64,000 bases of DNA from Eledone cirrhosa (taxonomy: Eukaryota): positions 3,596,001-3,660,000 of the forward strand of contig OZ024743.1 in NCBI GenBank assembly GCA_964016885.1. The letters are read 5' to 3'. Every line of letters begins with the position of its first letter. Position 1 is the stretch's first letter. Position numbers and translations under genes: made by a program. Of the stretch, positions 24,628-54,206 are shown in pieces. The notes under the pieces were generated by a model. It was not told the DNA's origin, ran no database searches, and saw only the letters and a list, made by a program, of their open reading frames with translations.

Positions 24628-24658
24628 ATGAAAACATTACATTTTCTAACTTTACTTG
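24628..24658 (+). CDS. VWA-EGF secreted protein, first coding exon (signal peptide [10 protein letters not shown])
   Basis: ATCATGA start context, hydrophobic codons and G|GTAAGT phase-1 donor; joins the next exon in frame. Confidence 0.82.
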
Positions 24659-25084
24659 GTAAGTTTAATATAAGTTCTTTCTAACAAATCCAACAAAAAT
24701 CCAACATTAAGAGCCAGACGAATTAATCTTCCACCCTTTTTACCTTCATCACATTATACAACACTTTCCACCATTCTACCTCTACCCTTATTTTGACTTT
24801 TAGCTTGCACAACTCTCATTGTTCCAGCAGAATCCATTTTCAAAAAATTGTTTCTTGTTATATGTACTATTTTTCTGGTATTTTGACAGTGGCGTATTCC
24901 AAAATCCAGGACTTTCTCGCTCTTGTCGGAAGACCCTCTCCCTGGTTGACATCCAGCGCTTCCTATCTCTGGCATATTGGGCTATGTGGGGCCGAGGTAT
25001 CGGATCTGATAATCGCGCTATCTGGCCTTTGGTCGCCCTTTCGTTCTTCTTCCCTGCCGTGATGTCTACTCTATCACTCTAATA

Positions 25085-25269
25085 CAAGGTTTCCCAAACT
25101 TTTTCAAACACGAAACCCTTTGTGGTTCACAAACATTTGGAGGAATTCCCAAGTCTAATACTCTTAGATGGTCGTAATATGGAATATACACCTCTACCCT
25201 TTTTCATGGAACCCTAGACACTCCTTTGTGGAACCATTACGTTCCGTGTAACCCACTTTGGGAACCAGC
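25085..25269. mobile_element. hAT/Charlie-like MITE (degraded)
   Basis: Termini CAAGGTTTCCCAAA...TTTGGGAACCAG are imperfect inverted repeats. Confidence 0.5.
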
Positions 25270-25633
25270 TTTTGTCTCTGAAACGAGAGACGTCGCCATC
25301 CATTTATTTATTAGTCGTTTATTAATTAGACACTCCATTTTTAAAACGATTTATTATTTTTCTTTAAAAGTTAACATTATGTTTTGAAAAAAATATTTTA
25401 CATGATGGTGACGGAATGAATGCAATTTAAAAATTTAAAATAGCTTTGCTGAATCAGAGAATTTCTGAAGATATAATAACAACAGATCTAACGACCTGGT
25501 GAATTACATAATTCAAGATAGACACCTCATAATATGAGTTATTTTATTAATTAGAATAAAAAAAGTTCCTATTCGTTTTGTTTTAATTTCTACTGTTTAA
25601 TTAAATCCTCTTTTCTTTCATATCCAATTTCAG

Positions 25634-25672
25634 TGATTGCTGTGGCACTCACACAGCCATGTGAAACCAAAA
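25634..25672 (+). CDS. VWA-EGF protein, 39-nt exon (VIAVALTQPCETK)
   Basis: Pyrimidine tract + TTTCAG acceptor, GTAAGT donor, phase 1-1; completes signal peptide [24 protein letters not shown]. Confidence 0.82.
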
Positions 25673-26580
25673 GTAAGTTTTCGGATTTATATAAAATATA
25701 CTCATTAACTTAACATAAAACATTCTATGAATAATTACCAAAATAATTAATATAGCCGATCTGTAAGAATAATATACACCTATTAAATAGATAATGTACA
25801 TGACCACATGTTTATCCCTTTTCTGCACATAAGCCGCATGTGTAGAGCTGAAACAATTTCAATATTCAAATTCACTAATGCATGTATTTGGCCAACGGAC
25901 AGCTGGATTAGAATGGATGTGACGTAGAATTGGGTAATTGTGAGGACGTCGATTAAAAATAATTTGTGGTATTTGTTCCGGCTCTCTGCGCTAAGTCCCA
26001 TTGCTGCTAAACTTAACTTTGCAACTCATCATGTAGGAGTGGTGTGTTGGGAGTTGGGGCGATAATGTGCCATAGGGCAATGAACTGATGTGATTATTGC
26101 GGTGTCTGTTTTGGCCTTTTGCAGGCTATGGTTGCCGACAGCGTCACTGGACCCAAATTGTACAGTTCTATGCCTTTCCTTTGGACAAAATTGCTGGCGT
26201 GCAGAGGGGAGACAAGCATGCATGTGCGAATGCTATCTACTGAAACAAATTTTGCATGGGCTTACAGCTTTGAAAACTTATGGTCACTCATGACCGATGG
26301 GAAATAAAAAAAATCCCTGGATGTATACGAGTTTGGATTTAGAACTTGGAGGTCCCAGGACAATTCAGGTTTGATACCCCCCCCCCACACACATACACGA
26401 AAATTAGAATGCACAGCAAACCTCCCAAATTTTACATATCAAAGTTAACTTGGCGCAAGTAATTGGAATTGAAAAGTTATCCATATAGGTATTAAATAAA
26501 ATAAAAAATCTAACCATACTAAAACTATATATATATATATATATATATATATATATATATATGTATATATGAATGTATGT

Positions 26581-26962
26581 ATATATGAATGTATGTATAG
26601 TATATTTGGCAATATACCGTGTGTTTAATTAAAAACATTTAGAAGACCATCCGCTATCAATTTTAAAGTAGTGACTATGTCACTTACTTCTTTTTGGCGA
26701 AAGAAGGGAGAGAAGCTGACAGTCTGTTTCACGCTGGCTGGCGTTCATCAGAGCCACGCTCTCTCCTGCTTCCGAAGCAGGGGAGTGCGTAGAACAGACT
26801 GTCAGCTTCTCTCCCTTCTTCCGCCAAAAAAGAAGTAAGTGACATAGTCACTACTTTAAAATTGATAGCAGATGGTCTTCTAAATGTTTTAATAAAACAC
26901 GGTATATTGCCAAATATACTATACATACATTCATATATTCATCGCTATTTCAGAGCACCAAT
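26581..26962. mobile_element. Fold-back hammerhead element (family B, copy 2)
   Basis: Inverted arms 26581-26728 / 26793-26938; homologous to the 18.1-kb element. Confidence 0.8.
26714..26755 (-). ncRNA. Hammerhead, canonical core
   Basis: GGCT-CTGATGA-ACGC CAGCCA GCGT-GAAACAGACTGTC-AGCT. Confidence 0.8.
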
Positions 26963-28188
26963 ATATATATATATATATCGTTTCTGAATTTGTTTAGCAA
27001 GATTCTTTATCTGAAAACGTGTGTTTCTTATTCGCAACATGACCCTCCCAATATATATATATATATATATATATATATATATATATATATATATATATAT
27101 ATATATATATGAAAACAGGGAGAAATAGACGATTATTAGGAAGAAAAATATTTTTTTTTTCCTTTTTTGTTTCTCTCTCTCTTTTTTCTGGGTTAGAACA
27201 TGATTAAAACGAAATGTTTTACTTTGTGTGAAGTGTTAAGGTATTAGTTGATTTATTTATTATTTAACAATGGCATTTATTTATCTATTTATATATTTAA
27301 TAATTGTCTATCTATGTTGTGCTCTTGACAACCTGAGCAGGTCAAAACATAGATTAGGTTTTCAGATGCACATGTAAAGTTGTGTTTAACTGTGAAATGC
27401 TGTCCTTCTTTAAAATGGAATGTTGAACCTTCTATTATATTTATGCATATGCCACAGTTGGGCCTTCCGCATTTTGTTACTATATATATATATATATATA
27501 TATATATATATAGATATATATATATGTGTGTGTGTATAAACTTTATTTATGTCCATACAGGGAGCAAAAGTGGTACCTAAGGTTTCAAGGCCCAATATCG
27601 ACCATATCTCCGGATTGTAAGAGAAATCAAAATCTGACCTAATCTTCAGGCACTTAGACGAGTTTGAAGATACCTTTAAATATAATATATCAGCTCTCAT
27701 CCCTGACTGAGCACTGTTTTCATTTTTCCTGTTTCACACCTACGGATATTTTCTATACACACACATGCGCGCGCACACACACACACACACGCACTCACAC
27801 ACATATACATATATATAAATTTTCTTTTTAGATACGAAGTTCCAATTTTTGTGAATATCACTCAGCATTTGTATTTGTGAGTGAATGTGCGTACTCAAAT
27901 AAATGATGTTAAGCAACTAACACTAGCCTCTGTGATTATTGCACAACATCTACACAGTATATATATATATATATATATATATATGTATATATGTATATGT
28001 CTGTGTGTGTGTGTGTGTGTGTGTGTGAGAGAAAGATATTGTGTATGTAACTGTGTTTGTGTGTGTGAATGTTGTTGGTTATTTGTATGTGCGTATATGT
28101 ATAATCTTTGGGGTGCATACGTATATTTATCTATATCGTATATCTTTGAAGCAAAGATCTTTTTTCTCTCCCTATTTATTTGTTACAG

Positions 28189-52276: not shown

Positions 52277-52390
52277 GCATTAATCCATGCCACCGCAGAC
52301 CTTGTAGGAACGGTGGCAGATGTATAAGTAGAAGAAATGGCTTCGTCTGTAAATGCAGACATGGCTACACTGGACGTTACTGTACCATAG
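52277..52390 (+). CDS. VWA-EGF protein, EGF exon 3
   Basis: TTACAG|...|GTGAGT, 114 nt: RINPCHRRPCRNGGRCISRRNGFVCKCRHGYTGRYCTI. Confidence 0.95.
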
Positions 52391-52759
52391 GTGAGTATAA
52401 TATTTAACGAAACGCAAGGCATTGTCTTAGGTTTATTATAGATTGCTATAAGGTTTTCTTGCTATCTTTTAAGCCAACGAGAGATGGTTTACGTGATAAC
52501 ATATGATAGAAATAGCAGCCTAATTTTCCTGTAGCAATAGAGAATGTATCTCTGTCGCATAGTTCTTAATATTAATATATATATATATGAAAATGTGAGA
52601 ATCCAAAATGCAGTAAATACCTGTAACGGCCGTCAATCGGTATATACAATAGCTTAGAACATCGGGTAAAATAACCCATAAATAGAAAAAAAATGTGGCC
52701 AGCAGCCTCTATAGAAAATCTAACTCTATATCTCTCAAATAATCTTTGTATGGGTGTGT

Positions 52760-53120
52760 GAAGGTATTTGGCTTAGTGATGAAAGTGTTGTGATTTTAAT
52801 TGTGAGGTTGTCAGTTCGATTCCCGGACCGGGCGGTGCATTGTGTTCATGACCAAAACATTAAATTTTACGTTGCTCTAATTCACTCAGCGAGATAAAGG
52901 GATTGCAACGTTATTACTGCCAAGCTACATCAACCCTTAGCTCCTTGGATAACATCGGTGGCGCAGTGAAGGTAGCCAGGTATGCCCAATCTTGTGCCCC
53001 AGAGGGAAAACGTTATGTTGCAAAACACATGGTCATATAGAACAGGTTACCGGGGCGATTTAATTGACTTTCCTCTCCCGCAAATTAGTTGGCCTTGTGC
53101 CTAAAATCAGAAACCATTAT
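52760..53120 (+). mobile_element. Second tRNA-derived SINE family plus 3' tail of the main SINE
   Basis: TGGCTTAGTG A-box and GTTCGATTCCC B-box; tail GGCCTTGTGCCTAAAATCAGAAACCATTATT. Confidence 0.65.
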
Positions 53121-53159
53121 TACTCGATTGCTGATATAAATAAGCCACAACTATTTCAG

Positions 53160-53278
53160 TTAATCCATGCAGCAAGAGATCTTGTAAGAACGGTGCGATC
53201 TGTATCCGCCAAGGATATGGTTTCGTTTGTACATGCCGACCTGGTTACGTTAGACGTTACTGTGATAAATATATGTAG
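53160..53278 (+). pseudogene. EGF exon copy lacking the splice donor (pseudo-exon or alternative terminal exon)
   Basis: TTTCAG|VNPCSKRSCKNGAICIRQGYGFVCTCRPGYVRRYCDK. The homologous donor position reads ATATGT instead of GTAAGT; read-through gives YM-stop (TAG 53276-53278). Confidence 0.75.
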
Positions 53279-54092
53279 AATATTTAAATAATTATAACTA
53301 TTGCCAGAAATTTATCATAGAGTGCAACAAAGACAACTTGTAAATTACCAAAGAAAAGATCTCCTATGTGAGCGCCTGACCTGCTAAACATAACATTCGA
53401 ACACTATTTCAACCACACGTAATCGATCCGGAAAATTAAAAAGACTGCAGTACATAATGTAGCCCATGGAGAGTAATTCATGATAAGAATAATATAACAA
53501 CGAAACCGTCATGATTTGAATGCCGTAGATCACAGCTTATCTCAACTAACTTAGCATTTGTGTTAATCAACAGCAACAGAAAACCAAAAATAAGAACATC
53601 GACTACCATGAAACTTTCTAAATCACTATGCTCTGCCTTTAAGGCAAAGATTACAGCGTAGCGTTTCATTTGGTGGATTAGATTTATGTATGTAATCATT
53701 TATATAAACAGAAATGATCATAAGACCACGTTAGAAAAAAGTTAGAGATATTAAAAGACGCGTTCTCAAAAACTTGAGCCATCCTGTTGTATGTAAATTA
53801 AGAAGAAGTGCTAGAGTTAGTTGATTATGTGGTCAACAAACGGCACGTACGTGTTTGTATATATATATATATATATATATATATATATATACAATGTGTG
53901 TGTGTGTCGTTTTGCATGTGCGTGCGTGCATCTGTGTGCATGCATATATCTTATATATAAATATGTTTTATATGTTTGTGTATGTTTGTAAAAATGTGAC
54001 ATTGCATGCATTACAAGCGTTTTTTATCCAACATTACGTCATTGTAAAAAAAAATATCGCGTCAAACTAACACATCACTTGCTTTTATATAG

Positions 54093-54206
54093 TGCGTAAT
54101 CCATGCACGAAGAGACCTTGTAAACATGGTGGTAGATGTGTCCGTAGAGGATATGGCTTCGTCTGTAGATGTCGAAATGGTTATACTGGACGTTACTGTC
54201 AGAGAT
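54093..54206 (+). CDS. VWA-EGF protein, EGF exon (last seen; gene continues)
   Basis: TATAG|...|GTAAGT, 114 nt: VRNPCTKRPCKHGGRCVRRGYGFVCRCRNGYTGRYCQR. Confidence 0.95.

What the first reader, a model, noticed from the sequence alone, without database searches (positions are those of the whole stretch)
24628..54206. Secreted polycationic VWA + tandem-EGF protein, a candidate cephalopod adhesive/matrix protein
Seen: seven exons splice in frame (all phase 1) into signal peptide - VWA with intact MIDAS (DESSS, T, D) - at least four EGF modules. By hand count the EGFs have 10, 13, 10 and 11 Arg/Lys per 38 aa and no Asp/Glu, and the VWA has about 35 basic versus about 10 acidic residues. Established: VWA-EGF is the matrilin layout; calcium-binding EGFs need acidic residues that are absent here; mussel byssus uses basic Tyr-containing tandem-EGF protein (mfp-2) and VWA proteins (PTMP1). 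Inference: a lineage-specific fusion of both module types acting as glue, egg-capsule/cement, sucker-cuticle or antimicrobial mucus protein that binds polyanions.
Basis: partly seen in the sequence, partly recalled or inferred. Interest (0 to 1): 0.72.

Follow-up and report, generated by a model that had tools for sequence, protein, structure and literature searches.

The report
Octopod protein with a polycationic arm
These seven exons are real and encode an extremely positively charged front end of what is likely a much larger secreted octopod protein whose rear half sits on an unplaced assembly fragment, and which is predicted to stiffen mucus or egg cement by gripping negatively charged sugars.

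Summary
Observation confirmed. Seven phase-1 exons give signal peptide, VWA (MIDAS intact) and four EGFs: 82 Lys/Arg against 11 Asp/Glu, pI 10.9. Both domain types lie far outside charge baselines.

The model has no stop. The missing 3' part is most likely unplaced contig G000:C1397: three more basic EGFs, a second basic VWA, one mixed-charge and about ten neutral EGFs, then VWD-C8-TIL-EGF-PAN-PAN. One O. bimaculoides protein carries both the window's signal peptide and that tail, and one Argonauta protein carries the window-type VWA and that tail. The whole is about 1,650 aa, secreted, with a cationic arm and a neutral-to-acidic tail.

It is not a matrilin, mfp-2 or Notch, and not unique to this species. 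It is the ortholog of uncharacterised octopod genes misnamed 'Notch homolog', within an expanded family. This scan already noted paralogs elsewhere in the genome. Abalone has a similar polycationic VWA-EGF protein.

A role cross-linking polyanionic mucus or egg cement is inferred. No RNA or tissue data were obtained.

The parts
24628..24658 (+). Exon 1: start codon and first part of the signal peptide
   Evidence: GT donor, phase 1; 1 match in the genome at up to 3 mismatches; exons 1+2 match the O. bimaculoides P0004/P0160 N-terminus at 16 of 23 residues, next best 6 of 23 among 183 proteins
25634..25672 (+). Exon 2: rest of the signal peptide
   Evidence: AG/GT, phase 1; hydropathy peak 3.07 over 11 residues; SignalP not available
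28189..28755 (+). Exon 3: VWA domain 1, MIDAS intact, net charge +25
   Evidence: Pfam PF00092 E 3e-46; groups with the Argonauta P0038 VWAs, support 93.4/97
29698..32958 (+). Intronic non-LTR retrotransposon (endonuclease + RT), not part of the protein
   Evidence: Pfam RVT_1, Exo_endo_phos, PHD
39805..43268 (-). Second intronic non-LTR retrotransposon, not part of the protein
   Evidence: Pfam RVT_1, zf-RVT, Exo_endo_phos
45126..45239 (+). Basic EGF exon 1 (10 K+R, 0 D+E)
51080..51193 (+). Basic EGF exon 2 (14 K+R, 0 D+E)
   Evidence: 93% identical over 172 bp, flanks included, to the second EGF exon of C1397
52277..52390 (+). Basic EGF exon 3 (9 K+R, 0 D+E)
53160..53282 (+). Extra EGF-type exon copy: acceptor and six Cys intact, donor lost, reads into a stop; likely a pseudo-exon, possibly an alternative last exon
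   Evidence: 77-83% DNA identity to the other copies; Pfam EGF E 9e-6; two conserved positions changed; AATAAA/ATTAAA hexamers at 53435 and 53750
54093..54206 (+). Basic EGF exon 4 (11 K+R, 0 D+E); ends in an open phase-1 donor, so the gene continues
   Evidence: the first exon of C1397 has a matching phase-1 acceptor
57830..62557 (.). Interrupted (TA)n arrays, retroelement fragment and 200-N scaffold gap (62358-62557): the likely place of the assembly break
   Evidence: C1397 begins with 1.9 kb of the same type of array, but the order of units does not match beyond chance

Best explanation
The window holds the signal peptide, first VWA domain and four arginine-rich EGF repeats of what is likely one secreted octopod protein of about 1,650 residues, predicted to cross-link a sulfated-sugar gel such as mucus or egg cement. 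Shown: the exons, their frame, the domains and the charge. Strongly inferred: the gene continues on unplaced contig G000:C1397 with three basic EGFs, a basic VWA (+21), one mixed-charge and about ten neutral EGFs, and VWD-C8-TIL-EGF-PAN-PAN, without a membrane anchor. Inferred mechanism: the front ~740 residues (net about +120, summed) form a disulfide-stiffened polycation that ion-pairs with sulfated or carboxylated polysaccharides and cell surfaces. The two MIDAS sites would add metal-bridged protein contacts. The neutral EGF rod would act as a spacer, and the VWD-C8-TIL/PAN end would self-associate or bind glycans, as such modules do in VWF and FCGBP-type proteins (established knowledge, not tested here). 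Odds: one gene with C1397 about 0.85; external gel cross-linker, given that, about 0.65.
For: (1) The two basic EGF exons of C1397 and the five window copies are the only 7 DNA matches in the genome; protein scores are 52-80 bits against 40 or less for the other 143 of 150 listed. (2) O. bimaculoides P0004 starts with the window's signal peptide (16 of 23 identical) and continues with C1397-type exons at 53-80% identity. (3) VWA tree of 28 rows: the window VWA groups with Argonauta P0038 (93.4/97) and the C1397 VWA with Octopus P0004/P0008 (99.4/100). The P0038 tail is closer to C1397 than the tail of paralog P0161 in 6 of 7 exons. (4) The signal exon is found once, and the last PAN exon has one close match, C1397 at 50%, against 37% or less for the other 14. 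(5) No EGF or VWA exon was found in the next 100 kb of C4. (6) 15 of 16 C1397 EGF cores have phase-1 acceptor and donor. (7) No transmembrane segment in 5 relatives. (8) Function leads only: a paralog (LOC115209496) is in O. vulgaris skin mucus; limpet adhesive mucus has vWFD+EGF proteins; snail and slug glues pair cationic protein with anionic polysaccharide; octopus egg slime is mucoprotein plus sulfonated mucopolysaccharide.
Against: No spliced read was seen: the only two runs listed behave as DNA. No sequence bridges the window and C1397: the array-order test gave 130 shared 60-mers against 117 +/- 28 in shuffles, and 164 of 500 shuffles reached it; the C1397 end shares only repeats with downstream C4. 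One run shows C1397 at word depth 3.3 against 6-8 in the window; the tool says this is no copy number, but it is unexplained. Domain order differs from Octopus, where EGFs follow the signal peptide directly, and the Argonauta branch is long (0.77). The ortholog's name, its accessions and five of its motifs were absent from the stored (cut) skin-mucus table. No binding or tissue evidence exists for this gene.
Confidence: 0.55

Rival explanations
1. The protein is mainly a defence component of surface mucus or egg coat: the polycationic arm, or peptides cut from it, binds or agglutinates bacteria, and the tail anchors it in the gel.
For: Cationic Cys-rich cuttlefish egg-case proteins (SepECP, +70 and +42) form a mesh and are antimicrobial (PMC4500399 passages). 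A paralog is in skin mucus. EGF copies differ at many amino acids with few silent changes, e.g. 7 against 2 between EGF1 and EGF2, which could reflect diversification.
Against: No assay. The SepECP paper text has no mention of VWA or EGF (0 hits). The counts of changes are too small to show selection. Not exclusive of the best explanation.
Confidence: 0.2
2. It is an internal extracellular-matrix linker (cartilage, dermis, basement membrane) that bridges collagen through the MIDAS sites and sulfated proteoglycans through the basic EGFs, as matrilins and collagen VI do.
For: The closest solved structures are collagen VI alpha-3 and PTMP1 VWA domains. VWA-EGF is the matrilin layout (established knowledge).
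Against: The VWD-C8-TIL/PAN tail and the turnover of repeat number between species are more typical of secreted gels (inference). Close tail homologs were found only in octopods, 6 of 8 hits.
Confidence: 0.15
3. The window gene is a short stand-alone polycationic protein (signal, VWA, three or four EGFs) ending at the 53160 exon or at an unseen small exon, and C1397 belongs to a separate paralog or haplotype.
For: The 53160 copy keeps its acceptor and six Cys and runs into a stop, with polyA-type hexamers 150-470 bp downstream. C1397 shows about half the depth in one run. No physical bridge was found.
Against: It needs a second signal exon and a second tail, both missing from the assembly. C1397 is not an allele of the window, since matches are confined to exon units of 172 bp or less and to repeats. 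Such hexamers are common in AT-rich DNA. A short isoform can coexist with the long one.
Confidence: 0.1

Closest known systems
Octopus bimaculoides XP_052822702.1 / XP_014776970.1 ('neurogenic locus notch homolog'), O. sinensis LOC115209189, O. vulgaris CAI9719088.1, Argonauta hians GAB1606482.1
   Same: Likely orthologs: same signal peptide (O. bimaculoides), basic EGF arrays, VWA and VWD-C8-TIL(-PAN-PAN) tail.
   Different: Automatic names only; 0 papers name LOC115209189, the two O. bimaculoides accessions or the Argonauta locus tag. Repeat number and order differ. This gene keeps both VWA types, whereas Octopus models show one and Argonauta the other. The O. sinensis and O. vulgaris models read their front EGF exons in another frame, which hides the charge.
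Haliotis rufescens LOC124110407 (P0014)
   Same: Secreted; tandem basic VWA (7 x +26) and tandem basic EGF (34 x +15).
   Different: Ends in a VWA, with no VWD-C8-TIL-PAN tail; its VWA does not group with the window's, so likely convergent; uncharacterised.
Limpet adhesive-mucus proteins P-vulgata_1, 2, 4 (PMC7333891, passages)
   Same: Large secreted vWFD + EGF proteins likened to zonadhesin and IgGFc-binding protein; P-vulgata_4 has positively charged repeats.
   Different: No VWA listed; they carry lectin, Kazal, TSP1 or cystine-knot modules instead.
Matrilin-like VWA+EGF proteins of slug and semislug glue
   Same: VWA + EGF proteins in a molluscan adhesive (PMC11178922 passages); cationic protein plus anionic polymer network (PMC9873654 passages).
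   Different: The primary Arion papers were not held, so charge and layout could not be compared; that they are short and lack a VWD tail is recalled, not checked.
Octovafibrin (PMC10336842, parts 2-3 of 6 read)
   Same: Octopus secreted material protein built on tandem non-calcium-binding EGFs.
   Different: C-type lectin, 29 EGFs, C-type lectin; a different accession; forms the egg thread, not the cement, which that paper only mentions.
Mussel mfp-2 and PTMP1
   Same: Tandem EGF cohesive protein and two-VWA matrix protein (PMC12817120 passages); PTMP1 is the second-best solved match, E 2e-37.
   Different: Separate single-domain-type proteins; no mfp-2 among the 120 listed of 659 hits to the basic EGF array; DOPA not testable here.

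Membership tests
Matrilin | VWA with MIDAS followed by EGF repeats | tested here: met
Matrilin | C-terminal coiled-coil oligomerisation domain directly after the VWA/EGF part (recalled) | tested here: not met
   Orthologs and C1397 end in VWD-C8-TIL-PAN-PAN; conditional on the C1397 link; a tiny terminal exon in the window cannot be excluded
Notch receptor (database name of the orthologs) | Transmembrane helix, LNR and ankyrin domains | tested here: not met
   No such Pfam hits in 4 of 4 relatives scanned; hydropathy peaks only at the signal peptide
Notch / fibrillin calcium-binding EGF | Acidic calcium-binding consensus | tested here: not met
   0 D/E in 4 of 4 window EGFs; no EGF_CA hit
FCGBP / zonadhesin / VWF D-assembly proteins | VWD-C8-TIL unit | tested here: met
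   Pfam VWD, C8 and TIL on C1397 exons; one unit only
FCGBP / zonadhesin / VWF D-assembly proteins | GDPH self-cleavage motif (recalled as typical of FCGBP) | tested here: not met
   Absent in 3 of 3 orthologs checked; visible in paralogs P0001 and P0021
Gel-forming mucin | PTS-rich glycosylated region and C-terminal cystine knot | tested here: not met
   At most 29 S+T+P per 100 residues in 4 relatives; no cystine-knot hit
Mussel mfp-2 | EGF-only cohesive protein | tested here: not met
   VWA present
Mussel mfp-2 | DOPA from tyrosine | not testable with these tools
   2-3 Tyr per EGF; 36% of 971 baseline EGFs also have 2 or more, so no clear enrichment
Octovafibrin | C-type lectin domains at both ends of an EGF array | tested here: not met
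   No lectin hit in the relatives; layout
Octopod VWA-EGF-VWD-C8-TIL-PAN family (undescribed) | Orthology with XP_052822702.1 / LOC115209189 / GAB1606482.1 | tested here: met
   Signal peptide, VWA tree, tail identities
Molluscan cationic glue or mucus cross-linkers (works-like) | Present in a secreted gel and binds anionic polysaccharide | not testable with these tools
   Only a paralog seen in skin mucus; no RNA holder listed

The most novel reading that the evidence does not exclude
This is the protein half of the two-component octopus egg cement: the oviducal peripheral-gland 'mucoprotein' whose +120 VWA-EGF arm coacervates with the central gland's sulfonated polysaccharide while its VWD-C8-TIL end polymerises. 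It would be a DOPA-independent underwater glue whose charge is tuned by gain and loss of EGF exons, arrived at separately in abalone.
Probability: 0.2. Interest if true: 0.75.

Novelty: new variant of a known kind. Interest (0 to 1): 0.42.

Why it matters
Octopus egg slime is described as a mucoprotein plus a sulfonated polysaccharide (PMC8976471 passages citing a 1975 paper), and my ten literature searches found no named cement protein. This gene gives a concrete, testable candidate, or a candidate for the cationic stiffener of octopus mucus. It also corrects annotation: the orthologs are not Notch, two database models hide the cationic arm by reading exons in another frame, and this assembly likely splits the gene. 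Folded, disulfide-locked polycationic EGF rods could interest wet-adhesive design. Until a tissue is known it remains one more multidomain secreted protein in a large octopod family.

Tried and rejected
RNA evidence: no RNA holder listed. Runs X1 and X2 cover introns evenly and show no joints at exon edges, so they are DNA; this says nothing on expression.

Physical join through the (TA)n array: same type and strand (130 of 1312 informative 60-mers shared, against 0-2 in 6 other arrays), but unit order is no better than shuffles, so it is not counted as proof.

C1397 end against downstream C4: repeats only. C1397 as an allele of the window: rejected, introns unrelated. AT bias as the cause of the charge: rejected. 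Tyr enrichment: not shown. Argonaut eggcase link: the preprint's text has 0 hits for VWD, PAN or notch.

Proteome tables: skin mucus holds a paralog but not the ortholog's name, 3 accessions or 5 motifs, in a file cut when stored. Ink table: 0 hits for 6 names. The 2024 mucus supplement was too large to read and may bear on tissue. The O. maya oviducal list has 2 'zonadhesin' transcripts, up at egg-laying, whose identity cannot be checked.

The first tree (52 rows) returned only the quick result; a 28-row tree with bootstrap replaced it, and locus L037 was dropped because no VWA was extracted.
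Full report
1. Observation. Pfam confirms one VWA and four EGFs. The MIDAS residues are present. The charge is extreme against controls. The VWA is +25, where 866 related VWA domains from 157 proteins have median -4 and 95th percentile +9. The EGFs are +9 to +13, where 971 EGFs from the 120 listed proteins have median -2 and 95th percentile +2; only 2 of those 120, both from the soft coral Xenia, average +5 or more. 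A fifth EGF copy at 53160 has lost its donor and runs into a stop. The long intron after the VWA holds two non-LTR retrotransposons.

2. The gene does not end in the window. The last exon has an open phase-1 donor. The window ends in interrupted (TA)n arrays and a 200-N gap. The next 100 kb of the chromosome contig hold no EGF or VWA exon. A DNA search with EGF exon 1 gave 7 matches genome-wide: five in the window and two on the unplaced 50.9-kb contig G000:C1397. C1397 opens with 1.9 kb of the same kind of array. On one strand it then carries three basic EGF exons (8-11 K+R, no D/E), a decayed copy, a VWA of net +21, one mixed EGF, eleven near-neutral EGF cores, and VWD, C8, TIL, EGF-like, PAN and PAN exons. 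15 of 16 EGF cores have phase-1 acceptor and donor, including the first. No signal exon was seen on it.

3. Relatives join the two halves. O. bimaculoides P0004 (XP_052822702.1) begins with the window's signal peptide, 16 of 23 residues identical against 6 of 23 for the next best among 183 proteins. It continues with basic EGF arrays, VWAs and a tail that matches C1397 exon by exon. O. sinensis P0008 is collinear with C1397 to the last PAN exon. In a 28-row VWA tree the window domain groups with the VWAs of Argonauta P0038 (SH-aLRT 93.4, bootstrap 97; long branch), and the C1397 domain with the Octopus ones (99.4/100). P0038's tail is closer to C1397 than that of paralog P0161 in 6 of 7 exons. 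The signal exon occurs once in the genome, and the last PAN exon has one close copy, on C1397. The simplest reading is one gene of about 1,650 codons broken by the assembly. Against this: no bridging sequence was found, no RNA was available, and C1397 shows word depth 3.3 in one run against 6-8 in the window, which I cannot explain. I put the link at about 0.85.

4. Family. The genome holds many related VWA and EGF exons in clusters on the same contig at 1.3-1.6, 144.4-144.7 and 320 Mb. Their VWAs run from net -9 to +19, so the window gene is at the basic extreme. A search with the tail gave 8 hits: 6 octopod proteins at 43-100% identity (one is the query itself), then SCO-spondin-like and fish proteins at 24%; squid and cuttlefish may be under-represented. 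The O. sinensis and O. vulgaris models start with an acidic-looking 37-residue repeat that resembles the window's EGF exon read in the +1 frame, so their cationic arm is likely hidden by mis-annotation. Polycationic VWA or EGF arrays also occur in O. vulgaris tandem-VWA proteins and in abalone LOC124110407. The abalone VWA does not group with the window's, which suggests convergence. Earlier unreviewed notes of this scan describe paralogs at 144 and 320 Mb as secreted mucus or matrix proteins with EGF exon arrays; look-ups by sequence and by charge words found nothing on this gene.

5. How it likely works. Shown: domains, charge and absence of a membrane anchor in relatives. Summed, the front ~740 residues carry about 152 K+R against 28 D+E; the ten intact middle EGFs are neutral (43 against 45); the tail cores are mildly acidic (51 against 65). 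Inferred: the front is a folded, disulfide-locked polycation that binds sulfated or carboxylated polysaccharides; MIDAS sites add metal-bridged contacts; the neutral rod spaces the arm from a VWD-C8-TIL/PAN end that oligomerises or binds glycans. The result would be a cross-linker for a secreted gel. The tail lacks the GDPH motif, a PTS region and a cystine knot, so this is not a classical mucin or FCGBP. Tissue is unknown. Leads: peptides of a paralog are in O. vulgaris skin mucus, while the ortholog was not found in the stored part of that table (PMC10138644 supplement search). Octopus eggs are coated with a mucoprotein and a sulfonated mucopolysaccharide from two parts of the oviducal gland, where two unidentified 'zonadhesin' transcripts rise at egg-laying (PMC8976471 passages and supplement).

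6. Comparison with what is known. It works like the cationic-protein/anionic-polysaccharide gels of snails and slugs (PMC9873654 and PMC11178922 passages) and resembles limpet vWFD-EGF mucus proteins (PMC7333891 passages). It is not a member of the matrilin, Notch, mfp-2, octovafibrin (PMC10336842, parts 2-3 of 6) or gel-forming mucin families. SepECP egg-case proteins share the cationic, Cys-rich character, but that paper mentions neither VWA nor EGF (PMC4500399 passages). The primary Arion glue papers could not be read. Ten literature searches found no description of this family; the accession search gave 0 papers. The library lacks most subscription journals.

7. Verdict. New variant of a known kind; interest 0.42, rising to about 0.75 if it proves to be the egg-cement protein (probability about 0.2).

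Noticed in passing
window 53160-53282 and L001:3630-3730: Two decayed EGF exon copies, one with a lost donor and one with an internal deletion, plus one C1397 copy without an acceptor (C1397:29947): ongoing birth and death of exons in the array.
   Followed up: partly
P0007, P0008, P0304, P0305 N-termini: Database models for O. vulgaris and O. sinensis appear to translate their front EGF exons in the +1 frame, giving a spurious acidic 37-residue repeat.
   Followed up: partly
P0014 (Haliotis rufescens LOC124110407): A 3,005-residue abalone protein of 7 identical basic VWAs and 34 identical EGFs of net +15 each; uncharacterised and more extreme than the window gene.
   Followed up: partly
window 48268-48601 and 47840-48116: Near-perfect hairpin with 164-nt arms (98%, 6-nt loop) next to an 89-nt inverted repeat; likely MITE-type elements.
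   Followed up: partly
G000:C107 (L041) and G000:C4:320 Mb: Unplaced contig C107 holds dozens of near-identical tandem VWA exons (net -11 in the one checked); the 320 Mb cluster holds many near-identical VWA-EGF-PAN copies.
   Followed up: no
window 11308-12496 (+), 56560-56868 (-), 61230-62357 (+): Fragments that look like Penelope-type retroelements by eye; the two scanned had no Pfam hit.
   Followed up: no
window 5485-5848: Short tandem repeat of about 33 bp, open in several frames.
   Followed up: no
L001:3212-5700: C1397 is covered by one 2.6-kb contig at word depth 3.3 in run X1, about half that of window contigs, and hardly at all in X2; unexplained.
   Followed up: partly
P0185, P0191 (Xenia): Soft-coral secreted proteins with tandem EGFs averaging +7 to +8, another case of basic EGF arrays.
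   Followed up: no
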